Positions 23,143 to 57,667 of a stretch of 64,000 nucleotides of DNA are shown here, one piece after another (position 1 is the stretch's first letter; every line of letters begins with the position of its first letter). The translations under genes were made by a program, and so were the position numbers. Under the pieces are notes generated by a model, which did no database searches, had not been told where the DNA came from, and saw nothing but the letters and a program-made list of their open reading frames with translations. This DNA comes from a virus. The stretch is from positions 143,986-207,985 of IMG/VR virus record IMGVR_UViG_3300044846_005229; one strand, 5' to 3'.

Positions 23143-24570
23143 TTACCCCGAAACCCTGACATCCCTAATCTCTATACCCTCAGCTTCCAGCAACTCCCGG
23201 AGCCTATCTGCCTCCTTAAAATCACGGTTAGCCCTTGCGATATTACGTTTTTCAATTAGTGCTTGAATACCATCGCTTTTTGGTTTTTGAGGTGCGGGAA
23301 CCTCATGAACTAATCCTAAAATTCCGGCCAATTCACATAAGAGCCTCCAACGATTTAGAATTTCCCTATTTTCATCGCCCGCTGATACGATGGGGCGAGC
23401 CAAATAGAACAATTCCCCGATGGCTACAGACGTATTAAGATCATCATTGAGTGCCGAAATGAAACGATCTTGACTATTTTTTAAGTCTGTAGTTAAAATC
23501 AAGGGTTCATTCGTTTGCTGACTATCGCCATGTTGACTAATTCCATGCCGACTAACATCATGCTGACTAGCCCCATGCCAACTATCACCATGCCAACCAA
23601 ACCCCAATGCAGCATTTAATACTTTCCAACCATTGATCGCGGGCACCATTGCTTCCGAATTAAAATCTATCGGCTTTCTATAGTGGGCTTGTAATACGAA
23701 TAATCTAATGGTCATAGGGCTAATTCCTGATCCAATTAGGTCTCTGATGGTTGTGAAATTCCCTAAGGATTTAGCCATTTTCTCTTCCCCAACCGTGACA
23801 AACCCATTATGAAGCCAATACCTGGCTAGTTCAGCCCCATTGGCGGCCTCCGACTGGGCTATCTCGTTTTCGTGGTGAGGAAAGATCAGGTCGGCTCCGC
23901 CCAAATGAATGTCAATCGTGTCGCCCAACTCCCCGCGCACCATAGCCGAACATTCAATGTGCCAGCCGGGACGGCCCCACCCCCATGGTGACGGGTACCC
24001 ATGGTCAATAGGCATTGCCCCTTTCCAAAGAGCAAAATCAAAAGGGTGGCCCTTCTTTGAGTCGCTATTAACCTGTTGTTGGCCAAGGTTGCGACCACTT
24101 AGTTTCCCGTACCCCTTAAACCCCACAACCGAGAAGTACATATCACCACCCATAGAATAAGCAAACCCTTTATCAGCAAGGTCTTGAATCATGGTGCGGA
24201 TTGCATCAAGACTACGGGTAACCCTTGGCATTTTGTCGGCAGGCAGGATGTTCAATGTGCCCATGTCTTCCTCAAAGGCCTTAATATTGCGCTCACTGAC
24301 GGCCCCGATTGTTACTCCTTCGGAGTTGGCTTTGGCTAGAATTTTATCGTCGATATCCGTATAATTTTGAACAAACGTAACCTCATACCCATGCCACATA
24401 AAATTACGCCTTAAGACATCCCACACGATATAACTACGGGCGTGCCCTAAGTGGCATAGATCATAAACGGTAACACCGCAACAATACATCGACACTTTGC
24501 CTGGAACCAGCGGGATAAACTTCTCTTTGGTTTTAGTTAGGGTGTTGGTTAGGGTAATGTCGTTAATCAT
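23143..24570 (-). CDS. cysS: cysteinyl-tRNA synthetase (class I; HIGH = CHLGHARSY, KMSKS = KMAKSLGN) with a low-complexity insertion WHGDSWHGASQHDVSRHGISQHGDSQQ
   Basis: Full-length alignment-level similarity to CysRS (zinc ligands and anticodon-binding region present). The insertion is encoded by about 15-nt tandem DNA repeats (catgYYgactaRYM) at about 23520-23600. Confidence 0.9.
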   Translation of the reverse strand: MINDITLTNTLTKTKEKFIPLVPGKVSMYCCGVTVYDLCHLGHARSYIVWDVLRRNFMWHGYEVTFVQNYTDIDDKILAKANSEGVTIGAVSERNIKAFEEDMGTLNILPADKMPRVTRSLDAIRTMIQDLADKGFAYSMGGDMYFSVVGFKGYGKLSGRNLGQQQVNSDSKKGHPFDFALWKGAMPIDHGYPSPWGWGRPGWHIECSAMVRGELGDTIDIHLGGADLIFPHHENEIAQSEAANGAELARYWLHNGFVTVGEEKMAKSLGNFTTIRDLIGSGISPMTIRLFVLQAHYRKPIDFNSEAMVPAINGWKVLNAALGFGWHGDSWHGASQHDVSRHGISQHGDSQQTNEPLILTTDLKNSQDRFISALNDDLNTSVAIGELFYLARPIVSAGDENREILNRWRLLCELAGILGLVHEVPAPQKPKSDGIQALIEKRNIARANRDFKEADRLRELLEAEGIEIRDVRVSG

Positions 24571-26952: not shown

Positions 26953-28209
26953 TCACTGATTAGCCCTGATTTGAACAGGCATCACCAGATAGGTGTATCT
27001 TGCCGTATCAATAGAACCAATCGGGAAAAAAACTGCCGGTGTTGTCGGGGCGTTCATTTGAATTTGAACTTTATCCGCACCCATAACCTTAGTTTTCAGG
27101 ACTTCAATCAGGTAACGCACATTAAATGCGATTGTGATTTCCGGACTATTACCAATGACCGTCAAACTCTCATTAAATGACATCATTCCTTCGGCTTGAG
27201 CACTAATTGTGGCCCCAACCTCAGTAAACTCAAACTTGACTACATTATTATGGGCATTAGCCACAATGGCAGCTTGCTCAAGTGTAGTCAGCAGAGAAAG
27301 ACGATCAAAGACAGCAACCGACTTGAAATTATCAGGAATCAACTGCCGATAGTTAGGGTATTGCCCATCTACCAATCGGAATTGAACCTTATAGTTACCA
27401 TACACTACGGTAACATCTTGCTTGGATACAGTGAAGGAAACCGGACTAAACTTAGGCTTAGCACCGATAATCTTAGCAATCTCTGCAAGGATCTTAGCGG
27501 GCATCGTAAAGTTAAATTCCGTTTCCCCGGTATCAACAATATCATCCAAAGTCAAAACCGACAACCTATGCCCATCCGTAGCAGCAAAAGACAAAGAATT
27601 GCCAGCAAGTTGCAGGTTGATCCCGGTAAGGAGCACCTTAGCTTGGTCCGAACTTGCCGAAAACAGGGTACTACCCAGGCCACCAACAAACTCAGCAGGT
27701 TGCACGCCGAACGTTATTGGATCGGTAGTAATACTGGCTGTGACTGGCAAACTCGGAAAATCGTCGGCAGGGATCGTATTGATCTTAACTGTCGCACCTT
27801 TATCTGCAGAAACCAACAACTTATCGTCAGAATCACCAGGATCAAAACTAAGGGTGACCGCCGAAGTCTTGGGCACCCCGTTTACGATATCCTTAAGGGT
27901 GAACACCGAAGCAGTAATTGAACCTGGAGACTCCACCGATGCAGCAATATCGACTGATACTTGTTTGATGAAACCGGAATTATTTCCTAGGTCAAATACC
28001 GTGGCCACTAACTTGCCTGAAGCACCATCAGCGGTAAGCAACACATTGAAGAGAACAGGGTGCTTAGCCCGCTTATCATAGTTCCGTGCCAGATCTTTAA
28101 GAGCCTGGCTGAGATCGGATTGGGCAACTACGGCTTTCATGTGACAGGGGGGTAGATGGTTTGGGAATGATGGACTCTGGGAGACAGCGGGCCAAAACCC
28201 GCTACTCAC
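26953..28209 (-). CDS. DnaN-like DNA polymerase sliding clamp (beta-clamp family); alternative start at 28140 (MKAVVAQ)
   Basis: MKAVVAQSDLSQALKDLARNY...HPVLFNVLLTADGASGKLVATVFDLGN parallels the DnaN N-terminus; three-domain length. Promoter -10 at about 28215-28220 and TTGAC at about 28240, so the upstream ATG at 28209 would be leaderless. Confidence 0.6.
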   Translation of the reverse strand: MSSGFWPAVSQSPSFPNHLPPCHMKAVVAQSDLSQALKDLARNYDKRAKHPVLFNVLLTADGASGKLVATVFDLGNNSGFIKQVSVDIAASVESPGSITASVFTLKDIVNGVPKTSAVTLSFDPGDSDDKLLVSADKGATVKINTIPADDFPSLPVTASITTDPITFGVQPAEFVGGLGSTLFSASSDQAKVLLTGINLQLAGNSLSFAATDGHRLSVLTLDDIVDTGETEFNFTMPAKILAEIAKIIGAKPKFSPVSFTVSKQDVTVVYGNYKVQFRLVDGQYPNYRQLIPDNFKSVAVFDRLSLLTTLEQAAIVANAHNNVVKFEFTEVGATISAQAEGMMSFNESLTVIGNSPEITIAFNVRYLIEVLKTKVMGADKVQIQMNAPTTPAVFFPIGSIDTARYTYLVMPVQIRANQ

Positions 28210-31571: not shown

Positions 31572-32384
31572 TCACTTAAAGATATTATCGGAAAGTGAAA
31601 GAACGTTAGCGCCGTTAATTAGGATCTTCTGAATGCTACCATTCTTCATCGCTTCACGAAGAACTTCAAGGCGTTGATACTCAAGAGATTGTGCCGTCAC
31701 AGTAGATGCTAGTGCCCTGTTTTCCTCTGCTTTGAGTTGTGCAGTCTGCGTCTTAACTTGCTGTTCTTTATTTGCAGATTGTGCGGCAACAACACGATTT
31801 ACGGACGCAACCAAATCATCAGGAAGATCTGCCTTACCAACAATAATAGAATCGATGGTAATTTTACCTTCAAGACCATTTTTCTTCAAGGCATCAGAAA
31901 GATTGGCTTTAATTGTGTCTTGAATTTGCTCAAGGCTACTATTTACCGCAAGTGCAGAGAATTCATCTACAGATTGGTTTACGGCAGAAGTAATCAGGCG
32001 AGCAATATAACTACTCATAAGTTGAACTTGGTTACCATCACCAATCGCGTGATTGGTCATATCATAACCAGTATAAAACTCATAGAGAGAAGTAGGATTG
32101 ATACTGTAGGTTACAGTCACATCCATTTCCTTCATGATGGTGTTATCTTTAGTCTTGGGGCGGAGATCATTTGCCGTCACCGTAATCTTACGTGTATTGA
32201 AGACTTTGATGCTACCAAAGCCATCATATTTAATTCCGGGTGTAAGAACTTCATTCTTCACCTGGCCATCAAAACCTACGAATAGGCCATTTTCACCAGT
32301 GCTAATTGTGGTGAATTGTCCTGCCGTAAGTGCAAGAGCAAGAGCACCAACACCGACGCCAATACCAATTTTTGCGAGAGACAT
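31572..32384 (-). CDS. SPFH/band-7 (prohibitin/HflC-like) membrane protein
   Basis: N-terminal TM helix followed by an SPFH domain (FTTISTGENGLFVGFDGQVKNEVLTPGIKYDG..., coiled-coil C-terminus). Confidence 0.75.
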   Translation of the reverse strand: MSLAKIGIGVGVGALALALTAGQFTTISTGENGLFVGFDGQVKNEVLTPGIKYDGFGSIKVFNTRKITVTANDLRPKTKDNTIMKEMDVTVTYSINPTSLYEFYTGYDMTNHAIGDGNQVQLMSSYIARLITSAVNQSVDEFSALAVNSSLEQIQDTIKANLSDALKKNGLEGKITIDSIIVGKADLPDDLVASVNRVVAAQSANKEQQVKTQTAQLKAEENRALASTVTAQSLEYQRLEVLREAMKNGSIQKILINGANVLSLSDNIFK

Positions 32385-34934: not shown

Positions 34935-35684
34935 TTACATTTTCATCGTGGCATCCAGACGCAAGCCCCCAGAGAAGATAACCTTAGCCATTGTGTCAGG
35001 CAGCGTCCCCAGTAGGTGCAGAGAGTCTAAAGTGGAAAACATAAACATTTTGTTAAGCTCTTCCCTTACCCTTTCCCTGGAGACGCAAGCTAGCATTTCT
35101 ACTGCCAAGTCACTGCGCAATACAGCATAAGTTTCATCATCGGGGACGAATCCTTTGGTAATTTGGAACCTGAACCCTCTTAGAACTCTGAGGCCGTCTT
35201 CTCTGATCCGGTCAGCAGGGTTCCCAACGAAACGAAGAATTTTATTCTTAACGTCGGAAACTCCCCCGAAAGGGTCAATCAGAGAGCCATCAATAGCTTT
35301 GGCGATTGCCCCACTGGTAAAGTCTCTTCTGGCCAAATCATCAAGTAAAGTCCCCGGCACCACCCAATCAGGACGGCGACCATCGGTGTAGGGGCCATCT
35401 TTGCGGGCTAGTACAAAGTCAGCGACGGTGGTGCGGGCTTCTAGCACATGGCCCTTTGGGACCCGCGCACGGATGGTTAGAAACTCACGGCGAGATTCGA
35501 AAATCTGGAAACCTTGCTCGGCAAGCTGAGCTTCCATTGCTAAGAAAGCGCTATCTGCCGTGGCGAAGACACCCTCGGGTGCAACAACGGAAAAATCAAT
35601 GTCCTTGGATGGAATCCCGAGCAAACTGTCACGGACGCACCCACCAACCTCAAAAAATTCAAATTTTTCTGCTTGGCTTGTCAC
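34935..35684 (-). CDS. class II tRNA nucleotidyltransferase (CCA-adding-enzyme-family) head/neck domain protein, only 249 aa
   Basis: GGCVRDSLLGIPSKDIDF, RRDFTSGAIA and DGSLIDPFGGVSDVKNKILRFVGNPADRIREDGLRVLRGFRF match the Pol-beta-superfamily CCA-enzyme head and neck motifs. Confidence 0.8.
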   Translation of the reverse strand: MTSQAEKFEFFEVGGCVRDSLLGIPSKDIDFSVVAPEGVFATADSAFLAMEAQLAEQGFQIFESRREFLTIRARVPKGHVLEARTTVADFVLARKDGPYTDGRRPDWVVPGTLLDDLARRDFTSGAIAKAIDGSLIDPFGGVSDVKNKILRFVGNPADRIREDGLRVLRGFRFQITKGFVPDDETYAVLRSDLAVEMLACVSRERVREELNKMFMFSTLDSLHLLGTLPDTMAKVIFSGGLRLDATMKM

Positions 35685-38073: not shown

Positions 38074-38796
38074 TCAACTAAAGATATCCACTGTTTCTTT
38101 TTTCTTAATCTGCCAGTAAGTGTCTCGTGTAGCATTATACGCAGTTAAAATACCTGAGAATACAGCCCCGGTATCAATCCCGATACGGTCATTAGTTATG
38201 TCCGGATCTTTACCTACGATAGTATGACCATGGACAACTCTCTTTATTTTGGCGGTCCATTCATGCAGTTCAGGTCCCAGGCTAAGGAATGGTTCACGTA
38301 TCCATAGTAGGTTGTCGGCCTTTTTAGTTTTAATTTGTTCAAAGGGATCATGCCCAGGAAACACTCCAGCATGAATAAACATTGTGTCCCCCACAGTCAT
38401 GTAGATAGGTAGTTGTTTGATCCATTCATAGTGATTGGCCTTCATGTCTTCAAACTGTTTAAGATTGCCGCCATTCTTCACCCAAAGCGTCAAAGAATTG
38501 TATCCCCACGAGGTTTCGGATCCTACAACAACATCCATAAACATACGCTCATGGTTACCCCTCAGCACATTGAAACTTTCTAGTCCTGCACTTTCGGGGT
38601 CATCCATAAGCTCCTTGACTTTGTTAAGGACCTTCATATCTTCCCCGCCACGATCTATCAAGTCCCCCAGCAGAATCACTCGCGCCCTGGTTCCATTAAG
38701 CCACTTTAATGCGGCAGCTAAAACATCATAACGAGCGTGGATGTCACCAATGGCTACTACATCACCGGCATTTACTTTTTTCCTTAGTTTAGTCAT
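38074..38796 (-). CDS. calcineurin-like metallophosphoesterase (PPP/lambda-phosphatase-type: GDIHARYD ... GDLIDRGGED ... GNHE)
   Basis: Canonical metallophosphatase motifs I-III; directly downstream of the P-loop kinase gene. Confidence 0.8.
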   Translation of the reverse strand: MTKLRKKVNAGDVVAIGDIHARYDVLAAALKWLNGTRARVILLGDLIDRGGEDMKVLNKVKELMDDPESAGLESFNVLRGNHERMFMDVVVGSETSWGYNSLTLWVKNGGNLKQFEDMKANHYEWIKQLPIYMTVGDTMFIHAGVFPGHDPFEQIKTKKADNLLWIREPFLSLGPELHEWTAKIKRVVHGHTIVGKDPDITNDRIGIDTGAVFSGILTAYNATRDTYWQIKKKETVDIFS

Positions 38797-38891
38797 TTTA
38801 CTTCGGGGGTTTTACTTTGGGGTTAATACTTCGGTATTTACCCTGTGGATATCCTATGGGTAATCTTGCGGGGTCACCATACGGGACCATA

Positions 38892-39389
38892 CTACGGACC
38901 CTTGCGGCAACCAACATATTCTACCATAGAAAAACCTTCCGTGTCAACCCCCCTTAAGGACGCTTGCAAGGCAGAGTGCATCTTTTCAATAACCAACTCA
39001 GGTACATTGCGACCCCTAGCTGCATTTTGCTTAAGACAAATTTCCAGGGGTGGATTCACTATGATGGCTCTAATGTTAGGGTACCCATAACTCTGGAGCA
39101 AAGCAATTGCATCCTTGCGGTATTTTGCCCTATAATGGGTGCCATCCATAATTAACACCTTACCAACATTTTCCTCTATCAGGTTTTCAATACGATCTTG
39201 AATAACCATCCATTCGCCCTGAATATTGGCATCCCCATATAATTCTGCTCGGATTTGGTCCCCGGAGAGGATTACTGCGTTTTCACGTTCAGCAAGCCTA
39301 GCAGCATAGGTGGATTTACCGGAGCCAGGGGCCCCTACCATGATGTAGGCGTAGTTGTGGTTGCAGGTGAGGGTGTTTATAGGGACCAT
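38892..39389 (-). CDS. P-loop nucleotide/polynucleotide kinase-like protein (GAPGSGKST Walker A), about 165 aa
   Basis: IMVGAPGSGKSTYAARLAERENAVILSGDQIRAELYGD resembles the Pnk/zeta-toxin-type AAA kinase fold. ATG directly preceded by a C11T11 tract; start moved from the track position. Confidence 0.65.
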   Translation of the reverse strand: MVPINTLTCNHNYAYIMVGAPGSGKSTYAARLAERENAVILSGDQIRAELYGDANIQGEWMVIQDRIENLIEENVGKVLIMDGTHYRAKYRKDAIALLQSYGYPNIRAIIVNPPLEICLKQNAARGRNVPELVIEKMHSALQASLRGVDTEGFSMVEYVGCRKGP

Positions 39390-39499
39390 AAAAAAAAAAA
39401 GGGGGGGGGGGTTCAAGGACCAGGAGTGTAGGGGTTCAAGGACCAAGGATGCCATAACCACATCAATTACACTTAGTATAGCATACCGCCAACCAAAGG

Positions 39500-39742
39500 T
39501 CAACGCCCGAAAGTCAAAAACCTATATCTATCCAACCAATCCTTTAGCAAATCATCATCTTCGACTACTTGGGAGTTTTGATTTACAAAATCTTCAACTA
39601 CCCACGCAACTTCTTTGAATTGCAATTCATTGCAATCCGGTTTGAATGAGACTTTGAGATTGGGGTATTTGGGTAGTATGGCCGCTAGTTGTGACTTTAG
39701 ACTTGATGGTGTGCTCATTTTGCAACTGCCGGGATTCAACAA
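39500..39742 (-). CDS. hypothetical protein (80 aa)
   Basis: ORF track. Confidence 0.45.
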   Translation of the reverse strand: MLNPGSCKMSTPSSLKSQLAAILPKYPNLKVSFKPDCNELQFKEVAWVVEDFVNQNSQVVEDDDLLKDWLDRYRFLTFGR

Positions 39743-40110: not shown

Positions 40111-40199
40111 AGGAAGAAGGGGGATTCGAACCCCCGGAGCCGCGAAAGCGACTCTGCAGTTTTCAAGACTGCTGCTATCAGCCACTCAGCCACTCTTCC
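40111..40199 (-). tRNA. tRNA-Ser(UGA), type II (long variable arm)
   Basis: Manual fold: acceptor GGAAGAG/TTCTTCC, D-arm, anticodon loop CUUGAAA, variable hairpin, T-loop GGGGGTTCGAATCCCCC. Confidence 0.75.
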
Positions 40200-42816: not shown

Positions 42817-42906
42817 TAGGCGCGTAGGGAATCGAACCCTAACTAGCCGGTAATCTGCCGGAGAGGTCTTCATAAGGGACCCTGTGCTACCGTACACCAC
42901 ACGCCC
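42817..42906 (-). tRNA. type II tRNA (long variable arm) with anticodon loop reading CUUAUGA (apparent UAU) and a C31:A39 mismatch; identity uncertain
   Basis: Manual fold: acceptor GGGCGTG/CGCGCCT (two G:U pairs), T-loop TAGGGTTCGATTCCCTA, variable hairpin CCGG-N7-CCGG. Anticodon assignment is not secure. Confidence 0.5.
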
Positions 42907-43319: not shown

Positions 43320-43391
43320 CACCCTGAGAGGGATTTGAACCCCCGACCGACGACTTAGAAGGTCGCTGCTCTTCCACTGAGCTACCAGGGC
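43320..43391 (-). tRNA. tRNA-Arg(UCU)
   Basis: Manual fold: GCCCTGG-TA-GCTCAGTGGAAGAGC-A-GCGAC-CTTCTAA-GTCGT-CGGTC-GGGGGTTCAAATCCCTC-TCAGGGT. Confidence 0.75.
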
Positions 43392-48221: not shown

Positions 48222-48998
48222 CTATATCAGGGGGTGGAGCCTGCCATCGTGGCCAAAATACCGGAGCACCTTGGTTTCCACATCGTACAGACAAAGTTTG
48301 GTATCTTCAGGGTCGATTTCGCTATGGGAAGACCCACCCATTTGACCGTCGAGGACGATGTTTTTCTCGCTGATGTAAACATTATGATAATGTCCAGCGA
48401 CCCGGACCCATTCCTTATCATCATCTTCCAGCCACCATGGGAGGCGATCAGACGTAACTTTGCCATCTTCCAGGGTAACCTTATAGAAAGGACCATAAAT
48501 CATGGTATTCAGTTCCTTGCGGGTAATAGCATTGGGCATTACTTGGTGGGTGCCATTATATTTCGGGATGGGCAATCTGCGGGGGAAACAAGCGTGAGCG
48601 CACCGGTATTCGGTCCCTTCCGCATCCCTAAATACAAAGCCATAAGGCATCGAGTCAAGCCAAGGCAATACTTCACCGACTAAGTCAATTCCGCCTCTCT
48701 CAAAGTCATCTAAGGTAGTTCGCAAGTCTTGGAAAACCTTGACCTTGTTTCCCTTGAGGCATCGAACCAGTTTATTTTGGTGATTGCTTTGTAGGATAAT
48801 AGTGCCAGGAATTTCCCTTTGAATTTGCCTCACTGCATGGTAAACTCCGACAGAATCCGAGGTTTCGCACCTTGAATCAAAAAGGTCCCCCAGTAGAATC
48901 GGGGTCAATCCTTCCGACAAGCAGTGCCCTAGGGCCGCTTCCAGGGGGGGCAACTGGGAATGGATGTCACCAATGATGGCGTAACGAATGTGTGTCAT
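48222..48998 (-). CDS. second metallophosphoesterase (IIGDIHSQ ... GDLFDSR ... SNHQ)
   Basis: Metallophosphatase motifs I-III with substitutions; paralogous fold to 38074..38796. Confidence 0.7.
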   Translation of the reverse strand: MTHIRYAIIGDIHSQLPPLEAALGHCLSEGLTPILLGDLFDSRCETSDSVGVYHAVRQIQREIPGTIILQSNHQNKLVRCLKGNKVKVFQDLRTTLDDFERGGIDLVGEVLPWLDSMPYGFVFRDAEGTEYRCAHACFPRRLPIPKYNGTHQVMPNAITRKELNTMIYGPFYKVTLEDGKVTSDRLPWWLEDDDKEWVRVAGHYHNVYISEKNIVLDGQMGGSSHSEIDPEDTKLCLYDVETKVLRYFGHDGRLHPLI

Positions 48999-49867: not shown

Positions 49868-49980
49868 ATGGGACCAGTAGGATTTGAACCTACACCTCTC
49901 CTTTAACGTAGGAATTTAATTGCTGATGTATCTTTGACAAGATAACTTTCTTTAGCGCTCTGTCGTTGAGCTATGGTCCC
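49868..49980 (-). tRNA. tRNA-like gene with canonical acceptor, D and T arms and a candidate anticodon arm (TTCCT-ACGTTAA-AGGAG, GUU?), interrupted by an about 41-nt insertion between the D and anticodon arms
   Basis: GGGACCA-TA-GCTC-AACGACA-GAGC-G-[CTAAAGAAAGTTATCTTGTCAAAGATACATCAGCAATTAAA]-TTCCTACGTTAAAGGAG-AGGT-GTAGGTTCAAATCCTAC-TGGTCCC-A. The insertion contains its own hairpin TATCTT-GTCA-AAGATA. Confidence 0.5.
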
Positions 49981-50456
49981 TTGTTTGCTTCGCAAATAGC
50001 TTGTTGAAACATGGTTTAGCTAGATAGTTGGTTTTCCGATTTTGAAGGGGATGGTTGCTGAACTATCTACGTTTGCCGAAGGCAAAGTCGAAGAGGCAAG
50101 ATTCGAACTTGCGTATGGCGGTTCCTTTAGCGCATTTGGTGTTGCTGAGCTACCTAAAGCATAACTAGATAGTCCTTTTGCATTACCGCCGCCTTACCAC
50201 TTGGCTACTCTTCGTTTTGGGTGTCTGGGTGTCTTAACCGTTAAAGGTCAACAAGGTGAGTTTTGCTGGATTTGAACCATTCCCCTTTGTTGCCCTGGTG
50301 AACTACCAGGGAAGCTAACTTTATTTAAACAAGATGGTTGGTTTTTCTGTTACAAAGAAAGGTTAGATTGCTGAACCATCTTACGGGATTGCCTTACTTA
50401 CCGCCCATTAACCCTATTTCCATCAGGCGAATACCATACCCACAGAGTCATACCTT

Positions 50457-51929
50457 TCAGTATATACCGCGTCCCGCATCAGGGACAATGGGGGTAATTG
50501 CATTGCCGGTAAGAACTGCGGTCAGGATTGACGGAGAGCAACCGCTAACGAGAGCGGTACCGGAATCATGGACCTTCATCGGGACGTTATCTGAGGAATT
50601 GACATTCCAGAAGATGACATCAGGCAAGCTATAACCAGCTTGGGCATACTTGATTCGAATTGCTTCGTAGTTAGTGACTTTTTTTCCGCTATACCCCCAA
50701 CCAGAACCAGTGCCACCCATGACAACACAGTCATCAAACTGCATGTCTGAGACAATAATCAGTTTGCGGGGCATGTCTGACTCTGGAATGTTGTTCCGAA
50801 CTGCAGTATCCAGAATAAGGTCAAACGTCTTTTGGATGTCAGTGTTACCACCCCAATCTGCTCGGCTCAGGTTTCTAACCTTGCTGGAGAGACTATTGCC
50901 AGTCACAGTTTGTAGGGAGGGGTTACCCGAAAATGTTAGAAACTTGTTTTTCCAGATGCCAGTATTACGCTCTGCGATATACATCGCCAGAGAGATGGAT
51001 ACTGCCATCGGACGACCCTCCATGGAACCGCTAACATCGGCAACAACAAGCCCATTCAATTCCTTGCCTTCCATGTAGTTGGGTAGAGCCTGCCAGAGGA
51101 GTTCAAGAGTATCGTTTGATTCGTTGTTATAGAGACACTTCTCAACGATGTCATACGGGTACAAAGTACCGGCATTGATTTTTGCCTCGCCTTTCTTGAC
51201 TGCATCGAGGTAAGACTGGTAGCGAGCACCATCATGGTTAGCAAAAGCTTTCCGATACATGAAGCCTGCACGAGAAGGCAACTTGCTATACTCAATGGCG
51301 TCCCACTCACGGGCACACATTGGTTGTTCTACGATATTGATTTGGGTGCGAAGCGCAGTCAGGGCCTTGCGGTATTGACGCTCATTCCAACCCATTGCCT
51401 TAGCGATAAGACGGCCAACCCGCTTGGATTCCTTGCTAGAAGCGTTAATGGAAGGTAGCCATTTTGCTAGTAGTGACACTGGGTTTCCAACTTCGGTGTT
51501 CAGGTCAGTATTAAGCTGCGTCTTAATTGCTTCTAGGGCGATGACCCAAACTAGCGTCCCTTCGAGGGCCACAACATCGTCCCAGCGACCGTACTGCGGG
51601 ATCAGGCCTACCAGCTTAGCTCCAATGGTCGCATCATTGCGAACCAGCTCCTTGAAGACTTCCCGGAAGATTTTTCGTTCTCCTTGCCCAATCCCCCTAA
51701 TATCACGTGCCCAAAACAGGATCCGGGTCGCAGTTTCAGGATCTTCGGCATAGGCTGACTTAAAGAGTTTAATGGCTGCATCAACATTATCACGGCAAGC
51801 TGCGATTTTACCGAAAAGGTCTAGGTTCTTTTGGCCCGTGGACCTATAGGCCTTTGCGCCGTTTGCAGTTGTGGTGATATTGGAGTTGGTATCCAGTTGG
51901 TTCTCAAGTGCATTCAAAAAGGTTGTCAT
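50457..51929 (-). CDS. vWA-domain protein with a large N-terminal helical (TROVE/DUF2828-like) domain; Ro60/Rsr-like architecture
   Basis: MIDAS motif VVADVSGSMEG plus downstream vWA strands; N-terminal about 330-aa helical region. Start moved to MTTFLNALEN. Confidence 0.65.
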   Translation of the reverse strand: MTTFLNALENQLDTNSNITTTANGAKAYRSTGQKNLDLFGKIAACRDNVDAAIKLFKSAYAEDPETATRILFWARDIRGIGQGERKIFREVFKELVRNDATIGAKLVGLIPQYGRWDDVVALEGTLVWVIALEAIKTQLNTDLNTEVGNPVSLLAKWLPSINASSKESKRVGRLIAKAMGWNERQYRKALTALRTQINIVEQPMCAREWDAIEYSKLPSRAGFMYRKAFANHDGARYQSYLDAVKKGEAKINAGTLYPYDIVEKCLYNNESNDTLELLWQALPNYMEGKELNGLVVADVSGSMEGRPMAVSISLAMYIAERNTGIWKNKFLTFSGNPSLQTVTGNSLSSKVRNLSRADWGGNTDIQKTFDLILDTAVRNNIPESDMPRKLIIVSDMQFDDCVVMGGTGSGWGYSGKKVTNYEAIRIKYAQAGYSLPDVIFWNVNSSDNVPMKVHDSGTALVSGCSPSILTAVLTGNAITPIVPDAGRGIY

Positions 51930-52079
51930 TTTTCTTCTCTCAAGTTGATTGTTTTGTGTTTGTGTTTCGGATACAAATAATAGCTGTATCAACTTTGCCC
52001 CTAGGAGTTAATTTTAGGGGTGGTGGTGGGGGGCACTGACGGCCCCGATATTGGGCAGTTTGTAACTTAGCTGGGTCAA

Positions 52080-52369: not shown

Positions 52370-52912
52370 TTAGTACCCTAAATCGGGAGGAGCTTTGCCC
52401 CCAACTACAGCCGGTGAAAACCTAACTACGGTTACCTCCCCCATGTCCCCCAAATCTTCGGCAAACTTGTTCAAGCTAGCGAGAACCCTATCGGGGTTTC
52501 CACCTGCCAAACCACACCCAATCATTGGGAATCCGATTTTAACGGGAATTCTTGTTTCAGGGGGTAAACCCTGGCGACATACCTTAGCATATAACCTATT
52601 GAGAAATGTCTCAAAGGCTTCGTACTCAAATATGTCTTTGCCACGCCCAAATGTAAACTGGGTATAGGCGTTAATAATCGTAAAGCCACAACCATTTGCC
52701 CCCACAACGTCAACTTCGGAAAAGGTCCCGAGTTTATTCCGGGTGCCATACTTTGTCTGTCTATCGGCGATAGCCACCTCTGGCCACCTCTTCACAATTT
52801 GACCGGCGATACCGCTAGCCATCGTATGGAAGCAATTGGCACCATGACAAATAATGTCGAAGTCACCATTGTCTGCCATTGTGAGTAGGTTGTTGTCAAT
52901 AATTGTTAACAT
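52370..52912 (-). CDS. Macro-domain (ADP-ribose-binding/hydrolase) protein
   Basis: DFDIICHGANCFHTMASGIAGQI matches the N.AAN..L.GGGGV.GAI signature, and IGFPMIGCGLAGGNPDRVLASLNKF the C-terminal Macro motif. Confidence 0.7.
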   Translation of the reverse strand: MLTIIDNNLLTMADNGDFDIICHGANCFHTMASGIAGQIVKRWPEVAIADRQTKYGTRNKLGTFSEVDVVGANGCGFTIINAYTQFTFGRGKDIFEYEAFETFLNRLYAKVCRQGLPPETRIPVKIGFPMIGCGLAGGNPDRVLASLNKFAEDLGDMGEVTVVRFSPAVVGGKAPPDLGY

Positions 52913-52965
52913 CCGATTAGGTCCAATTTGGGTGGGGAATTTGTGAGATGGCGATACCCTACCAC

Positions 52966-53793
52966 TCAAAGTGGCGGGTGGTTAAGTTTATTGAGCACAT
53001 ATTCAAGTCTGGTGGGCTTTAGATCAAGGGGGATGTTATCTAAATTACCTGATGCGCCCGTACAATCGCCTTCTACTCCTGTGCAGTCCCCAATTAAGTT
53101 AGAGCAGTCCCCAATTAAGTTAATTACCCTCCCGTATAAACCAGTGCAATTGCCGGTTAGGCCAGAAATAAATCCCCTCAGATTGGAGCAATCACCAAAT
53201 AAATCCGGGTTAATGGTCCCTAAAGCCCCCGATAGGTCACCTGTTAATTTAGGGTTAATCATCCCTTTAACACCACTCAAGTCCCCGGTTAAGTCTTTAT
53301 TAAGAGTACCGGATAAGCGTCCCCATGGGTCAATACCTAAACCCATATTACCGTACAAATTAGAAACATCCCCCTCCAATGATGGCAAGATTCTTCCCCT
53401 AAGATCGGAGTTTATCTCACCTGTCAAATAACTCACATCTCCAATAAGCCTAGGATTGATCGTTCCACTGAGGTTAGAACAATCACCGAAGAGGAAAGGG
53501 CTTAGTTCGTCATAGGAGAGGCTCGGGTTTAACCCCTTTTGTACAGCCCCCTCACCATCTAACCAAAAAAATCTTTCGCTAGATTCAAAGAAGTCATGTA
53601 TCTTGCTTCTCATTTCTAAGATTTCCGGCTCCAGGGGTATTTGAGGGGTTGCTTCAAATAAGGGTACAAGCTTGCCAACCGCTTCATCCCATGCGTAAGG
53701 TGTACGGATATTGTCACCTAGCTTAAACCTGACTTCATTTAAGTCATAATAAAAGTCTAGCAGAACATTAAGATTGTCTTGTAACTGAGTCAT
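52966..53793 (-). CDS. repeat protein with about 14 tandem 11-residue G(D/N).S.L.G.I(N) units (LRR or beta-helix-like); possible fibre or adhesin
   Basis: ORF track; repeats visible at protein and DNA level; start moved to MTQLQDNLNV. Confidence 0.5.
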   Translation of the reverse strand: MTQLQDNLNVLLDFYYDLNEVRFKLGDNIRTPYAWDEAVGKLVPLFEATPQIPLEPEILEMRSKIHDFFESSERFFWLDGEGAVQKGLNPSLSYDELSPFLFGDCSNLSGTINPRLIGDVSYLTGEINSDLRGRILPSLEGDVSNLYGNMGLGIDPWGRLSGTLNKDLTGDLSGVKGMINPKLTGDLSGALGTINPDLFGDCSNLRGFISGLTGNCTGLYGRVINLIGDCSNLIGDCTGVEGDCTGASGNLDNIPLDLKPTRLEYVLNKLNHPPL

Positions 53794-55277: not shown

Positions 55278-55730
55278 TCAAATCCCCATCGAAAGGTGCG
55301 CTTCATCGCGAATCCCCTCAAGGATGACCCCAAGTTTGTTGGCGCCATCTCCGGTCACAACATCAACACCCCAATAAGTGTCTCCCCAAGTGTTGCCTTC
55401 GATTAGCTTTGCGTTCCCTGTTTGTGCTAGGAGGTTTTTTAGATCTGGGTTCTGAAATTTAATGCGTAGTAACTCTTCCATAACTTTGTCTTTTCTAAGT
55501 TCCCACCCTATAGGGTCAAAGTCCTTTAAAATGCCGTTGCGGTTCCCGGCGGCTTTAGCCTCGCTTGGAGACTGCATCTTTGCGATTTGGTGGCGAGTTT
55601 CGGAGTCCTGAGTCTTAGCTGCTTGAAAGGCGTGTTCGACTGTGGGGTATTTGATCCCTTCGTATTCTAGAACGCTCTCATAAAAGTTTGACAGAAAGCT
55701 GAATTGGCCTGAGAATTTGGTAATGGTCAT
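55278..55730 (-). CDS. NADAR-domain (YbiA/DUF1768) protein
   Basis: FSFLSNFYESVLEYEGIKYPTVEHAFQAAK ... EGNTWGDTYWGV matches the NADAR signature. Start moved to MTITKFSG, giving an ATGA overlap with the upstream gene. Confidence 0.75.
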   Translation of the reverse strand: MTITKFSGQFSFLSNFYESVLEYEGIKYPTVEHAFQAAKTQDSETRHQIAKMQSPSEAKAAGNRNGILKDFDPIGWELRKDKVMEELLRIKFQNPDLKNLLAQTGNAKLIEGNTWGDTYWGVDVVTGDGANKLGVILEGIRDEAHLSMGI

Positions 55731-56077
55731 TTGTCTCCGAATTCGATAAACAGATTCATTTCCCAATAGTCAAATTGATCTTGGATGGCGTCCTTCGCTT
55801 CGTTGTATTCTTCCTCGGTAAGGCAGCCGGGGTTCTGATATAGGACCTTCATTCTTTCTAAAGAATTTTGCAGGCCCCGGATATATTCAGATTTGTACTT
55901 GCGTTTTTGGTATTCTTCCAAAGATTCCTTGACGCCGTCAGGCCAATAAATGGTGTCGGTTCGGGAGTCAAATCCTGGTAAGTCTCTGCTGAGGGCTTTG
56001 GAATTTTTAGCGGCTTGCTGATTGCACCATTCTTGTGCCCAGGAGAGTGGGCGAGTTGAGTCTGCTTCGAGTATCAT
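55727..56077 (-). CDS. hypothetical protein (116 aa), operon partner upstream of NADAR
   Basis: ORF track; 4-nt overlaps at both ends. Confidence 0.55.
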   Translation of the reverse strand: MILEADSTRPLSWAQEWCNQQAAKNSKALSRDLPGFDSRTDTIYWPDGVKESLEEYQKRKYKSEYIRGLQNSLERMKVLYQNPGCLTEEEYNEAKDAIQDQFDYWEMNLFIEFGDK

Positions 56078-56575: not shown

Positions 56576-57667
56576 TCAGCCACTCTTCTTCCCCTTAGAT
56601 AGCAACCACTCATTACTAATGGCCTTAAAGGAAAACTCAGAGTCATTGGACTTGAATACTAAGCCCTCACGTTTAACGTTAGGATTCATGGACGGGCCAT
56701 CGGCGTACGCTAGTAGCTCATCTAGGTTGGCGAAACTATCGGTTACACACATTGCGGGGTGTAGGACAGGGGCATGGGTTAAATCAGCGCCTAATGGAAC
56801 CAGGTACTTGTCCAAGAGGTTCATTCTGGCCCCTGGCTTCATGTAGGTCTGGTTGTCGATATCGAAGATGTCGAACAGATATAGCCGTTGTCCCTTGATT
56901 CCTTCCTGATTGCCCTGGATGCCTTCTCCAAGGGTTTCCGACTGCAAGGCAATACTGTGACCAGTCTTCCCATTGTATGCAAGCATAGCATCGATAATGC
57001 CCTGGTCCCTAGCAGCCTTCCAGAAACTATTGCCTTCGGTTTCCTTGAGATCAAGGTTACGGCTGCAAACCCCAATGTCACCGTCTTTGACGTAAATCGT
57101 ACATGAAGATCCGTCGAGCTTCAGGGTAACTTCGTAGGTCTCATTCCTGTGGGTCTCAAAGATTTCGCTAGCGATATTCTGACAACGTTCCTGGTCTGTC
57201 TTCACAAGGAAGCTCGGGAAGTTGCCTTTTGCAATGCCAGCCAAACAAGCCGGTACAGGAGCCTCCCATTTCTGAATGCCGAGAATTTCGGTTACGTCGT
57301 CTCCTTCCTGAAGGCCCCTCTCAAATGCGGTGACATAGTAACTGAAGTCTACATAGAGCTTTAGAGAAATAGGCAACAGCAACCCTTGGCTGAGTTGCCC
57401 ACGGAGCTTAACGGTCTTGAGACGTTCGCCCTTCACGCCGTTATACTCACGGGGCTCTTTCCCATTAGAAAGGAAGGGCGCCAACTCGTGAGGAATAAAT
57501 GAGTCGGGTTCTGCGTAAATTACCAAATCCCCTACTTCATACTTCCCCACAGAATCCACAACCCACCAGCCATTCACACGGTAGGCACAGATTCTATCGG
57601 CTTCAGGGATGGGGCGAATCTCAGCAATGCGCTGGACAGATGCAAGTTTGCGTTCGATGTTTGCCAT
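56576..57667 (-). CDS. ATP-dependent RNA (or DNA) ligase-family protein, nucleotidyltransferase motif I KLDGSS, with an N-terminal OB-like extension
   Basis: KxDG adenylyltransferase motif in VTLKLDGSSCTIYVK. N-terminal IAEIRPIPEADRI...VNGWWVV...KYEVGDLVIYAEPDSFIP resembles Rnl-family ligases with an N-terminal domain (pattern-level). Confidence 0.65.
   Translation of the reverse strand: MANIERKLASVQRIAEIRPIPEADRICAYRVNGWWVVDSVGKYEVGDLVIYAEPDSFIPHELAPFLSNGKEPREYNGVKGERLKTVKLRGQLSQGLLLPISLKLYVDFSYYVTAFERGLQEGDDVTEILGIQKWEAPVPACLAGIAKGNFPSFLVKTDQERCQNIASEIFETHRNETYEVTLKLDGSSCTIYVKDGDIGVCSRNLDLKETEGNSFWKAARDQGIIDAMLAYNGKTGHSIALQSETLGEGIQGNQEGIKGQRLYLFDIFDIDNQTYMKPGARMNLLDKYLVPLGADLTHAPVLHPAMCVTDSFANLDELLAYADGPSMNPNVKREGLVFKSNDSEFSFKAISNEWLLSKGKKSG

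What the first reader, a model, noticed from the sequence alone, without database searches (positions are those of the whole stretch)
38074..39389. Split Pnkp-like end-healing pair: P-loop kinase gene immediately followed by a calcineurin-type phosphoesterase gene
The gene order kinase (GAPGSGKST) then metallophosphoesterase (GDxH / GDxxDR / GNHE) mirrors the domain order of bacterial Pnkp RNA-repair enzymes (kinase, phosphoesterase, ligase), here as separate genes. Together with the RNA ligase at 56576-57667 it would provide 5'-kinase, 2',3'-phosphatase and sealing activities, the classic countermeasure against host anticodon nucleases (as in T4 Pnkp/Rnl1; established knowledge). This assignment is an inference from motifs only.
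Basis: partly seen in the sequence, partly recalled or inferred. Interest (0 to 1): 0.75.

Follow-up and report, generated by a model that had tools for sequence, protein, structure and literature searches.

The report
Phage polynucleotide kinase plus phosphoesterase pair
Two neighbouring genes of an uncultivated large phage encode a polynucleotide 5'-kinase and a metal-dependent phosphoesterase that very probably prepare broken RNA (or nicked nucleic acid) ends for the phage's own RNA ligase; this is a split version of a known repair enzyme and is not a new kind of system.

Summary
On the minus strand, a 165-aa P-loop kinase (38892-39389) is followed after 95 nt by a 240-aa binuclear metallophosphoesterase, MPE1 (38074-38796).

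The kinase is a polynucleotide kinase. Its best sequence and fold match is the kinase domain of Clostridium thermocellum Pnkp, and all catalytic residues are invariant.

MPE1 is a lambda-phosphatase-type enzyme by sequence. Its best fold match, by a small margin, is the Pnkp phosphatase domain.

The two genes are adjacent in 39 of 39 informative related viral contigs. In more distant phages the order is reversed. One viral contig fuses kinase, MPE and ligase into a single 745-aa protein.

The ligase at 56576-57667 is an Rnl5 nick-sealing RNA ligase. It sits on the same contig as the pair in at least five relatives.

Pnkp is its top family hit, and in distant phages it lies directly after the kinase.

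Function is inferred, not shown, and tRNA repair is not separated from DNA/RNA nick repair. Published jumbo-phage surveys already note calcineurin-like phosphatases in phage RNA repair.

A conserved array of tRNA-like genes with a shared structured insertion lies nearby and remains unexplained.

The parts
38892..39389 (-). 5'-OH polynucleotide kinase (stand-alone, 165 aa; the ORF extends to a TTG at 39503)
38074..38796 (-). MPE1: binuclear metallophosphoesterase of the lambda-phosphatase type (240 aa), directly downstream of the kinase
38797..38891 (-). 95-nt spacer between kinase and MPE1
   Evidence: No terminator-like site on the coding strand. A promoter-like hexamer pair (11 of 12 matches) lies at 38947-38918, but the number of such sites in the region is at chance level. 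In relatives the spacer runs from a 4-bp overlap to about 190 bp.
48222..48998 (-). MPE2: second, paralogous metallophosphoesterase (258 aa) with Pnkp/PrpE-like motifs
   Evidence: Motifs GDIHSQ, GDLFDSR, SNHQNK, AHA, GHYH and LDG are conserved in 11 homologues. The top PDB profile hit is the CthPnkp phosphatase, 5.2e-7; one weak further hit is RLPH2 at 2e-3. The top NCBIfam hit is bacter_Pnkp, 4.2e-8. It also hits phrog_8238. hhalign against MPE1 gives probability 96% and 25% identity. It lies directly downstream of the kinase in L054, L055, L056 and L058.
56576..57667 (-). [quoted passage not shown]
   Evidence: Pfam PHA02142 OB domain plus RNA_ligase. Naegleria gruberi RNA ligase 5cot matches at E 7.5e-85 over the full length, with the KxDG nucleophile motif aligned. 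It shares a contig with the kinase-MPE1 pair in at least 5 related viral contigs.
34935..35684 (-). Context: short (249 aa) tRNA nucleotidyltransferase (CCA-adding type) without an HD domain
   Evidence: Pfam PolyA_pol head domain 4e-17. phrog_24229 tRNA nucleotidyltransferase 1.3e-51. NCBIfam CCA tRNA nucleotidyltransferase 3e-35, matching only the N-terminal half of the models.
52370..52969 (-). Context: macro-domain protein; in relatives it lies next to MPE2
   Evidence: phrog_335 'phosphatase' 1.3e-43. Weak Pfam Macro hit. Macro-MPE2 adjacency is seen in L015, L045, L093 and L127.
55278..55766 (-). Context: NADAR-domain protein, about 0.8 kb downstream of the ligase
   Evidence: Pfam NADAR 2.8e-25, and a weak hit to Phage_30_3.
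50457..51992 (-). Context: DUF2828/DUF7788 protein with a vWA-like DVSGSM motif, called 'RNA-binding protein' in PHROGs
   Evidence: Pfam DUF7788 4.5e-48 and DUF2828 2e-34. phrog_850 6e-145. No significant PDB sequence hit, even with a profile.
50088..50214 (-). Context, unexplained: tRNA-like gene (127 nt) with a conserved structured insertion inside the anticodon arm
   Evidence: Rfam tRNA model 47.6 bits, with 62 nt in place of the 7-nt loop. Own covariance model R1 scores 80.9 bits. Conserved in 9 contigs (A7).
49869..49980 (-). Context, unexplained: tRNA-like gene (112 nt) with the same insertion between nt 28 and 29 of the anticodon stem
   Evidence: Rfam tRNA 47.8 bits. R1 scores 108 bits. 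The insert hairpin has compensatory changes.
40111..40199 (-). Context: tRNA-Ser(UGA), 0.7 kb upstream of the kinase
   Evidence: ARAGORN and Rfam. Two further tRNA genes lie at 42817-42906 and 43320-43391.

Best explanation
The two genes are a co-inherited nucleic-acid end-healing module of a large uncultivated phage, probably a freshwater cyanophage-like virus. It is functionally equivalent to the kinase and phosphatase domains of bacterial Pnkp, but encoded as separate proteins.

Proposed mechanism:
- The kinase uses an NTP to phosphorylate 5'-OH polynucleotide ends. D44 acts as general base, R47 positions the acceptor, K25/S26 with Mg2+ and the lid arginines R125/R127 hold the gamma-phosphate.
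- MPE1, a Mn2+-type binuclear phosphoesterase, opens 2',3'-cyclic phosphate ends and/or removes 3' (or 2') phosphates to give 3'-OH. The paralogous MPE2, and in relatives a stand-alone HAD phosphatase, probably share this work.
- The resulting 3'-OH and 5'-PO4 ends are sealed by the phage Rnl5 ligase.
- The most likely substrates are tRNAs or other RNAs cut by metal-independent host ribonucleases during infection.

Shown here: family and fold assignments, conservation of the catalytic residues, conserved gene linkage, and co-occurrence with the ligase.
Inferred: the enzymatic activities, the division of labour between MPE1 and MPE2, the RNA substrate, and the anti-defence role.
For: Kinase:
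- CthPnk is the best match by sequence and by fold, followed by Pnkp1, T4 Pnk, PSTK and mammalian PNKP.
- The catalytic residues defined in PMC3902929 are invariant in 42 homologues.

MPE1:
- All nine residues essential in CthPnkp phosphatase (PMC3675462) are conserved.
- Its nearest sequence relative, lambda phosphatase, itself hydrolyses nucleoside 2',3'-cyclic phosphates (PMC2190708).

Linkage:
- MPE1 lies directly downstream of the kinase in all 39 informative IMG/VR loci whose kinase is at least 50% identical, and in the long metagenome contigs.
- The order is inverted, MPE1 upstream and MPE2 downstream, in 4 of the 5 loci whose kinase is 39-44% identical.
- Kinases at 26-38% identity lie within 10 kb of an Rnl5-like ligase in 15 of 34 loci.
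- A fused kinase-MPE-ligase protein exists in L086, and both window proteins hit phrog_8238 collinearly.
- The closest isolate homologues of the kinase are annotated polynucleotide kinases next to RNA ligase genes.
- The closest cellular homologues, about 30% identical, include Capnocytophaga, the genus of the solved Pnkp1 (4xrp); the domain make-up of those loci was not examined.

Ligase and context:
- The ligase is Rnl5. It is on the same contig as the pair in at least 5 relatives.
- The window also holds tRNA genes, a CCA-adding enzyme, CysRS, and macro and NADAR proteins.

Literature: a jumbo-phage survey states that polynucleotide kinases and phosphoesterases, in a few phages calcineurin-like ones, accompany ATP-grasp RNA ligases (PMC7824862).
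Against: - No activity was measured.
- The N-terminal beta-hairpin that distinguishes CthPnkp phosphatase from lambda-PP is not seen in the model.
- MPE1 is frameshifted in the closest relatives, in three assemblies, while the kinase stays intact.
- The ligase is 17 kb away, and 69 of 80 phage Rnl5 loci have no kinase-, MPE- or HAD-phosphatase-type gene within 10 kb.
- Synechococcus phage S-CBWM1 has MPE1 and MPE2 homologues but no detectable kinase.
- In relatives the pair is followed by a 5'-3' exonuclease, which fits DNA transactions as well.
- Rnl5 enzymes seal nicks in duplexes and have no demonstrated role in tRNA repair (PMC5397189).
Confidence: 0.55

Rival explanations
1. The pair heals ends of DNA or RNA-DNA hybrid nicks rather than broken tRNA. 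It would be a 5'-kinase and 3'-phosphatase for replication or repair intermediates, working with the 5'-3' exonuclease and with Rnl5, which seals nicks whose 3'-OH strand is RNA.
For: In most relatives with a kinase at least 50% identical, the order kinase-MPE1-5'-3' exonuclease (PF02739/PF01367) is conserved. A HAD_PNKP phosphatase and a thymidylate kinase lie a few kb further on. Rnl5 ligases seal nicked duplexes, and DraRnl contributes to recovery from ionising radiation (PMC5397189). CthPnk and T4 Pnk phosphorylate DNA as well as RNA (PMC3902929). The window also carries a sliding clamp.
Against: In this window the exonuclease and the HAD gene are absent. The neighbours here are tRNA genes, a CCA-adding enzyme, and macro and NADAR proteins. 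The kinase's nearest relatives belong to RNA repair systems: Pnkp, Pnkp1, and phage Pnk next to RNA ligases.
Confidence: 0.2
2. MPE1 is not an end-healing enzyme. It would be a lambda-phosphatase/PrpA-type protein phosphatase, or an ApaH-type hydrolase of dinucleoside polyphosphates, Np4-capped RNA or signalling nucleotides, and its position next to the kinase would be synteny without a shared pathway.
For: The best sequence matches are NinI-like phosphatase (phrog_246, 2e-42), ApaH (58 bits), PrpA (51 bits) and lambda-PP. S-CBWM1 carries the homologue without a kinase. MPE1 is frameshifted in the nearest relatives while the kinase is intact. The physiological substrate of lambda phosphatase is unknown (PMC3675462).
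Against: Adjacency holds in 39 of 39 informative loci, sometimes with a 4-bp overlap, and survives inversion of the gene order in distant phages. Kinase-MPE fusions exist. The fold search puts the Pnkp phosphatase first.
Confidence: 0.12
3. The healing and sealing enzymes process the phage's own insertion-bearing tRNA-like transcripts. The conserved insertion would be cut out, and the exon ends healed by kinase and MPE and joined by Rnl5. This would be a heal-and-seal tRNA splicing pathway in a bacterial virus.
For: There are 2-4 tRNA-like genes per contig, with different tRNA bodies, sharing the same structured insertion of about 40-55 nt in the anticodon arm. Of 16 contigs with the exact insert motif, 15 also carry the kinase-MPE pair. 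The genes lie 7-11 kb from the pair.
Against: No splicing endonuclease or ribozyme was found (Pfam scans). The co-occurrence may simply reflect one phage clade. For one class, no clean 7-nt anticodon loop results from any simple excision. Their position next to the DUF2828 'RNA-binding protein' gene fits a stable RNA partner as well.
Confidence: 0.08

Closest known systems
[quoted passage not shown]
   Different: Here there are three separate genes instead of one polypeptide of about 850 aa. The ligase is Rnl5 with an N-terminal OB domain, not the Pnkp-type ligase domain. No Hen1 methyltransferase was found in the window. There are two paralogous MPEs. MPE1 is nearer to lambda phosphatase by sequence. 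Scores are far below the family cut-off: 59.9 and 37.2 bits against 750.
Pnkp1-Rnl-Hen1 system of Capnocytophaga gingivalis (PDB 4xrp; PMC4411300)
   Different: In Pnkp1 the kinase and phosphatase are still fused, and the complex needs Hen1. Here they are separate genes and no Hen1 is seen.
Phage T4 Pnkp plus Rnl1 (tRNA repair after PrrC cleavage), and the Pnk-HAD genes next to RNA ligases in Streptomyces and Bacillus phages
   Same: The logic is the same: 5'-kinase, 3'-phosphatase and ligase encoded by a phage. The kinase fold and the Asp/Arg acceptor-site pair are the same. The isolate homologues of the kinase are such genes.
   Different: The T4-type phosphatase is a DxDxT (HAD) domain fused to the kinase. 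Here the phosphatase is a separate binuclear metalloenzyme and no HAD gene is in the window. The ligase is Rnl5, not Rnl1 or Rnl2.
Bacteriophage lambda phosphatase (NinI; PDB 1g5b) and enterobacterial PrpA/PrpB
   Same: This is the closest sequence family of MPE1, with the same motifs and the shared W..NGG and W.RE segments. [quoted passage not shown]
   Different: MPE1 is tied to a polynucleotide kinase gene. It has an extra C-terminal beta-strand (residues 226-231), as CthPnkp does. Lambda phosphatase has no known nucleic-acid role.
Rnl5 nick-sealing RNA ligases (Deinococcus DraRnl, Naegleria NgrRnl)
   Same: The window ligase matches NgrRnl over its full length at E 7.5e-85, with OB and nucleotidyltransferase domains.
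   Different: The physiological partners of Rnl5 are largely unknown. In Deinococcus the 5'-OH kinase belongs to a separate operon (PMC5397189).

Membership tests
5'-OH polynucleotide kinase clade of P-loop kinases (CthPnk / T4 Pnk type) | P-loop GxxGxGKS/T with catalytic Lys and Ser | tested here: met
   GAPGSGKST at residues 19-27. K25 and S26 are invariant in 42 homologues.
5'-OH polynucleotide kinase clade of P-loop kinases (CthPnk / T4 Pnk type) | General-base Asp and its partner Arg in the acceptor site (CthPnk D38/R41, T4 D35/R38), plus Thr contacting the first phosphodiester | tested here: met
   D44, R47 and T84 align with D38, R41 and T80. D44 and R47 are invariant and T84 is nearly so. 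Residue roles come from PMC3902929.
5'-OH polynucleotide kinase clade of P-loop kinases (CthPnk / T4 Pnk type) | Lid arginines on the gamma-phosphate (CthPnk R120, R123) | tested here: met
   R125 and R127 are aligned and invariant. CthPnk R116, which stacks on the nucleobase, is Q121 here.
5'-OH polynucleotide kinase clade of P-loop kinases (CthPnk / T4 Pnk type) | Nearest structural neighbours are polynucleotide kinases, not nucleotide kinases | tested here: met
5'-OH polynucleotide kinase clade of P-loop kinases (CthPnk / T4 Pnk type) | Phosphoryl transfer from NTP to a 5'-OH polynucleotide | not testable with these tools
   Needs an enzyme assay.
Bacterial Pnkp (TIGR04075 equivalog) | Single polypeptide with kinase, metallophosphoesterase and ligase domains, scoring above the curated cut-off | tested here: not met
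   The genes are separate. Scores are 59.9 bits (kinase), 37.2 bits (MPE1) and 31.8 bits (MPE2) against a cut-off of 750.
Bacterial Pnkp (TIGR04075 equivalog) | Phosphatase active-site set: Asp187, His189, Asp233, Arg237, Asn263, His264, His323, His376, Asp392 | tested here: met
   MPE1 has D18, H20, D45, R49, N81, H82, H142, H191 and D208, invariant or nearly so in 40 homologues.
Bacterial Pnkp (TIGR04075 equivalog) | Embellishments that set the Pnkp phosphatase apart from lambda phosphatase: beta3-beta4 hairpin, Cth-loop with helix alpha7, C-terminal beta13 | tested here: inconclusive
   The AF2 model of MPE1 shows an extra C-terminal strand at 226-231. It shows no N-terminal hairpin. The Cth-loop could not be judged. 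MPE2 was not modelled.
Bacterial Pnkp (TIGR04075 equivalog) | Partner Hen1 2'-O-methyltransferase encoded alongside | tested here: not met
   No Hen1-like protein was found among the window ORFs scanned with Pfam and PHROGs. Small ORFs and DNA outside the window were not covered.
Lambda phosphatase / NinI-like metallophosphoesterases (phrog_246) | Family HMM match over the catalytic domain, with GDxHG, GDxxDRG, GNHE, H and GH motifs | tested here: met
   phrog_246 at 1.9e-42, covering residues 14-237. Lambda-PP is the best PDB sequence hit, full length.
Lambda phosphatase / NinI-like metallophosphoesterases (phrog_246) | Protein Ser/Thr/Tyr phosphatase activity as the physiological function | not testable with these tools
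   It is unknown even for lambda phosphatase itself (PMC3675462).
Rnl5 RNA ligases | N-terminal OB domain fused to a C-terminal nucleotidyltransferase domain with the KxDG lysine nucleophile | tested here: met
   PF21189 plus PF09414. NgrRnl matches at 7.5e-85 over residues 6-355, with the motif KLDGSS aligned. K183, D185 and G186 are invariant in A3.
T4-type Pnkp / Rnl1 tRNA repair pathway | Kinase fused to a DxDxT (HAD) 3'-phosphatase, with an Rnl1-type ligase | tested here: not met
   tBLASTn finds no HAD_PNKP homologue in the window. The ligase is Rnl5. Relatives do carry a separate HAD_PNKP gene.

The most novel reading that the evidence does not exclude
The kinase-MPE1 pair may be one arm of a larger, so far undescribed phage RNA-processing system. 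The other parts, kept together in this phage clade, would be:
- MPE2, macro, NADAR, the Rnl5 ligase and a truncated CCA-adding enzyme;
- a DUF2828/vWA 'RNA-binding protein';
- an array of 2-4 tRNA-like RNAs that share a structured insertion in the anticodon arm.

Two readings are open. In the first, the insertion-bearing RNAs are precursors whose insertion is excised, and the exons are healed and sealed by these enzymes: heal-and-seal tRNA splicing in a bacterial virus. In the second, they are non-permuted Y-RNA-like cofactors of the DUF2828 protein, making the region a viral counterpart of the bacterial rsr-yrlA-rtcBA RNA repair operon built from different parts.
Probability: 0.15. Interest if true: 0.8.

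Novelty: new variant of a known kind. Interest (0 to 1): 0.42.

Why it matters
If the prediction holds, this phage clade carries out Pnkp-type end healing with unfused proteins and two paralogous metallophosphoesterases. It would pass the healed ends to an Rnl5 ligase.

That would give Rnl5 ligases, whose physiological partners are largely unknown, a defined healing partner. It would also give lambda-type phosphatases, whose natural substrates are unknown, a plausible nucleic-acid role.

The separate small proteins would be convenient reagents and convenient subjects for biochemistry.

Because phage RNA repair with kinase, phosphoesterase and ligase is an established concept, the finding extends a known theme and does not open a new one. 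The unexplained tRNA-like RNAs nearby are the part that could change this assessment.

Tried and rejected
- Near-identity DNA search of 36-42 kb against GenBank phages: no match. No cultured relative is available.
- Single-protein search of viral contigs with the kinase: nothing. The alignment-based search worked.
- Defence-system membership (PADLOC): no meaningful hit for kinase, MPE1, MPE2, ligase, DUF2828 or macro.
- Promoter and terminator scan around the pair: counts are at chance level, so no operon claim is made from it.
- Search for HAD_PNKP and the 5'-3' exonuclease in the window: absent.
- Search for a Tpt1/KptA-like or other informative domain among ten small ORFs between 44 and 59 kb: only NADAR was found.
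- Test of whether MPE1 or MPE2 is closer to the fused phage Pnkp of L086: no difference, 33 against 30 bits.
- Test of 'TROVE/Ro60-like' for the DUF2828 protein by PDB sequence search, with the single sequence and a profile: no significant hit. The label stays an annotation-level lead.
- Rfam search for YrlA or a known self-cleaving ribozyme in the tRNA-like region: none.
- ARAGORN with introns: it does not call the 112-nt gene, and it calls the 127-nt gene an implausible tRNA-His(AUG).
- Literature search for DUF2828: uninformative.
- Burroughs and Aravind 2016 (PMC5062991) is not held in the library and could not be read.
Full report
**1. What is in the sequence.**
All genes in this part of the window are on the minus strand.
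- The kinase ORF runs 38892..39503 from a TTG. The ATG at 39389 gives a 165-aa protein, and homologues start at or near that position. It carries GAPGSGKST.
- After a 95-nt spacer comes a 240-aa ORF, 38074..38796, with GDIH, GDLIDR, GNHE, HAG, GH and IDTG.
So is the ORF at 56576..57667 (minus strand).

**2. The kinase.**
- Pfam gives only the generic AAA_33 family, 5e-23.
- The best NCBIfam hit is the kinase segment of bacterial Pnkp (1.4e-16), followed by PSTK. Adenylate kinase models match only the P-loop region, at 1e-3 to 1e-6.
- Against solved structures the best hits are the four entries of the Clostridium thermocellum Pnkp kinase domain: 2.7e-12 with the single sequence and 7.6e-18 with a 42-sequence profile. 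PSTK, Pnkp1 and T4 Pnk follow.
- The residues shown to be essential in CthPnk are K21, S22, the general base D38 and R41. Also important are the lid arginines R120 and R123 and the phosphodiester contact T80 (PMC3902929). They align with K25, S26, D44, R47, R125, R127 and T84, and these are invariant or nearly so across 42 homologues. Only R116, which stacks on the nucleobase, is replaced, by Q121.

**3. The adjacent phosphoesterase (MPE1).**
- By sequence it belongs to the lambda-phosphatase group. Scores are phrog_246 'NinI-like' 1.9e-42, and ApaH 58, PrpA 51 and Pnkp 37 bits in NCBIfam. With a 40-sequence profile, lambda-PP scores 58 bits, a Shewanella phosphatase 50 and the CthPnkp phosphatase 44.
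- All nine residues essential in CthPnkp phosphatase (PMC3675462) are conserved. They are equally conserved in lambda phosphatase.
- Two of these runners-up, 2qjc and lambda-PP, together with the Shigella homologue of ApaH (2dfj), are the neighbours reported for CthPnkp itself.
- The model has an extra C-terminal strand (226-231), as CthPnkp does, but not the N-terminal hairpin of CthPnkp.
- MPE1 is therefore a lambda-type binuclear phosphoesterase with a complete active site. The sequence alone does not say whether it acts on RNA ends. Lambda phosphatase does cleave nucleoside 2',3'-cyclic phosphates in vitro (PMC2190708).

**4. Genomic linkage, the strongest evidence.**
- Both proteins have many metagenomic homologues at 50-90% identity. 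No cultured phage has a close one. The GTDB species genomes have nothing above about 30% identity, and the best of those include Capnocytophaga, the genus of the solved Pnkp1; the domain make-up of those loci was not examined. The family is viral.
- In long contigs (88-280 kb) the kinase is followed by the MPE after 4 nt.
- Among 80 IMG/VR loci retrieved with the kinase alignment, 41 have a kinase at least 50% identical. All 39 with enough downstream DNA have MPE1 directly downstream, from a 4-bp overlap to about 190 bp.
- Of the five loci with kinases 39-44% identical, four have MPE1 directly upstream instead. The linkage survives a rearrangement.
- Of 34 loci with kinases 26-38% identical, 15 have a homologue of the window's ligase within 10 kb, and some of these also have an MPE.
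- One contig (L086) encodes a 745-aa kinase-MPE-ligase fusion. Both window proteins hit the corresponding phage profile, phrog_8238, in collinear order.
- The isolate homologues of the kinase, about 35% identical, are annotated polynucleotide kinases next to RNA ligases in Streptomyces and Bacillus phages.

**5.
- The ORF 48222..48998 (258 aa) is a diverged paralogue of MPE1: hhalign probability 96%, 25% identity.
- Its motifs are GDIHSQ, GDLFDSR, SNHQNK, AHA, GHYH and LDG.
- Its top PDB hit is the CthPnkp phosphatase (profile E 5e-7); the only other hit is a weak match to RLPH2 (2e-3). The match runs through the NH..KL.R.L.G..V....L.RTL segment. Its top NCBIfam hit is bacterial Pnkp, 4e-8, followed by PrpE.
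- In the four distant loci above, MPE2 lies directly downstream of the kinase, giving MPE1-kinase-MPE2.
- In one compact relative (L045/L098) the order within about 10 kb is ligase, macro, MPE2, DUF932, kinase, MPE1, 5'-3' exonuclease, HAD_PNKP.
- The 'split Pnkp' picture is therefore right in spirit, but the system has two phosphoesterases. The one next to the kinase in this window is the less Pnkp-specific of the two by sequence. Against the fused phage Pnkp of L086 the two score alike.

**6. The ligase.**
- It matches Naegleria gruberi RNA ligase at E 7.5e-85 over its full length, and has the N-terminal OB domain. It is an Rnl5 nick-sealing ligase, not Rnl1.
- It lies on the same contig as the kinase-MPE pair in at least five relatives, 6 to about 20 kb away. 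This is a lower bound, because the ligase search was cut at the best 80 loci.
- Conversely, 69 of 80 phage Rnl5 loci have no kinase-, MPE- or HAD-phosphatase-type gene within 10 kb. The nearest isolate, Synechococcus phage S-CREM1 (60% identity), has none nearby.
- The association is real in this clade but is not a general property of Rnl5.

**7. Context in the window.**

| Feature | Coordinates |
|---|---|
| tRNA-Ser(UGA) | 40111-40199 |
| Atypical 90-nt tRNA-Ile(UAU)-like gene | 42817-42906 |
| tRNA-Arg(UCU) | 43320-43391 |
| 249-aa CCA-adding-type nucleotidyltransferase without HD domain | 34935-35684 |
| Cysteinyl-tRNA synthetase | 23143-24570 |
| Sliding clamp | 26953-28209 |
| Macro-domain protein | 52370-52969 |
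| NADAR protein | 55278-55766 |
| DUF2828/DUF7788 protein, 'RNA-binding protein' in PHROGs | 50457-51992 |

- The 5'-3' exonuclease and the stand-alone HAD_PNKP phosphatase seen in relatives are not in this window.
- A pentapeptide-repeat protein, and best isolate hits to Synechococcus phages for MPE1 and the ligase, suggest a cyanobacterial host. This is an inference.

**8. Mechanism and its status.**
- The best-supported reading is an end-healing module. The kinase converts 5'-OH to 5'-phosphate. MPE1, probably with MPE2, converts 2',3'-cyclic or 3'-phosphate ends to 3'-OH. The Rnl5 ligase seals the ends.
- The substrate is not settled. The tRNA-centred neighbourhood, and the RNA-repair affiliation of the kinase's relatives, favour RNA cut by host ribonucleases. 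The conserved exonuclease neighbour in relatives, and the reported role of DraRnl in radiation recovery (PMC5397189), keep a DNA or RNA-DNA nick role open.
- MPE1 is frameshifted by a 1-nt deletion in the nearest relatives, in three independent assemblies, while the kinase is intact. MPE1 can therefore be lost, perhaps because MPE2 covers for it.
- Nothing here measures activity.

**9. Comparison with what is known.**
- The system works like Pnkp but fails the membership test for Pnkp: no fusion, scores far below the cut-off, no Hen1, a different ligase type.
- It is closest in logic to Pnkp1-Rnl-Hen1, where the ligase is already separate, and to T4 Pnkp/Rnl1, which uses a different phosphatase fold.
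- A comparative study of jumbo phages already states that polynucleotide kinases and phosphoesterases accompany ATP-grasp RNA ligases, and that in a small number of phages the phosphatase is calcineurin-like (PMC7824862).
- I therefore rate it a new variant of a known kind. What is new is that the proteins are fully unfused, that there are two paralogous MPEs, and that the partner is an Rnl5 ligase. The interest is moderate.

**10. An unexplained feature nearby.**
- Just downstream of the DUF2828 gene lie two tRNA-like genes, 50088-50214 (127 nt) and 49869-49980 (112 nt). They score 47-48 bits with the Rfam tRNA model but carry 54-62 nt in place of part of the anticodon arm.
- Related contigs have 2-4 such genes in the same place.
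- Different tRNA bodies are involved: at least four acceptor-stem classes, with apparent anticodons GUU, UUU and UCC. All share the same insertion, a hairpin UAUCU/AGAUA with compensatory changes, followed by CAGCAAU.
- In most copies, covariation of nt 27-28 with nt 42-43 places the insertion between nt 28 and 29. In the other class it lies inside the loop.
- No known ribozyme or YrlA model matches.
- The exact motif occurs in 16 IMG/VR contigs, and 15 of them also carry the kinase-MPE pair. That may only reflect one clade.
- These RNAs could be introns needing heal-and-seal enzymes, RNA partners of the DUF2828 protein, or decoys. I could not decide between these.

Noticed in passing
window 50088-50214 and 49869-49980 (minus strand); also L093 19588-20912, L095 17697-18442, L043 2655-3360, L004 673-1378: An array of 2-4 tRNA-like genes (112-127 nt) lies downstream of the DUF2828 gene. 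Different tRNA bodies share one conserved structured insertion in the anticodon arm: a hairpin UAUCU/AGAUA followed by CAGCAAU. There is no Rfam ribozyme or YrlA match. The motif is confined to the phage clade that carries the kinase-MPE pair (15 of 16 contigs).
   Followed up: partly
window 48222-48998 (minus strand): A second metallophosphoesterase (MPE2), paralogous to the one in the finding. Pnkp is its best-matching known family. In L054, L055, L056 and L058 it lies directly downstream of the kinase, and in several relatives it lies next to a macro-domain gene.
   Followed up: yes
L001 10575-11278, L002 and L003 (closest relatives; kinase 89% identical): The MPE1 gene carries a 1-nt deletion in the NGG codons that splits it into 112- and 122-aa ORFs. 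This is seen in three assemblies, and the kinase is intact. It could be pseudogenisation or recoding.
   Followed up: partly
L086 9989-12226; L055 8996-11121: L086 is a viral contig with a 745-aa fused kinase-MPE-ligase (bacterial Pnkp architecture). L055 is a high-GC viral contig with the three-gene cluster MPE1-kinase-MPE2.
   Followed up: partly
window 50457-51992 (minus strand): A 511-aa DUF2828/DUF7788 protein (phrog_850 'RNA-binding protein', 6e-145) with a vWA-like DVSGSM motif. It may be Ro60/TROVE-like, but it has no significant sequence match to any solved structure, even with a profile.
   Followed up: partly
window 34935-35684 (minus strand): The CCA-adding-type tRNA nucleotidyltransferase is only 249 aa and lacks the HD phosphohydrolase domain of the bacterial CCA-repair enzymes. 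One of the MPEs might supply the 3'-end phosphoesterase step. This is speculation.
   Followed up: no
window 23143-24570 (minus strand): A phage-encoded class I cysteinyl-tRNA synthetase: catalytic domain at 1.7e-119, plus DALR and anticodon-binding domains.
   Followed up: no
window 52370-52969 and 55278-55766 (minus strand): Macro-domain ('phosphatase', phrog_335) and NADAR-domain proteins lie between the ligase and MPE2. These are ADP-ribose-linked enzymes of the kind associated with NAD-dependent RNA repair in phage surveys.
   Followed up: no
window 42817-42906 (minus strand): A 90-nt tRNA-Ile(UAU)-like gene with a 20-nt extra arm in the variable region and a mismatched anticodon stem (Rfam 35.9 bits). 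This is atypical for tRNA-Ile.
   Followed up: no
L004 9301-12262, L007, L013 and most relatives: In relatives the pair is followed by a 5'-3' exonuclease (FEN-like) and, 2-4 kb further on, a stand-alone 133-aa HAD_PNKP phosphatase and a thymidylate kinase. None of these is present in the 64-kb window.
   Followed up: partly
window 20519-21442, 18528-20060, 31572-32384 (minus strand): A pentapeptide-repeat protein with a DUF5758 domain, a DUF4942 methyltransferase-like protein and an SPFH/Band 7 protein. The pentapeptide repeats and the SPFH protein, which is shared with Synechococcus phage S-CREM1, hint at a cyanobacterial host.
   Followed up: no
window 38947-38918 (minus strand): A promoter-like site (TTGACA, 18 nt, TAGAAT with an upstream TG; 11 of 12 matches) lies inside the 3' end of the kinase gene, upstream of MPE1. 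The number of such sites in the region is at chance level.
   Followed up: no
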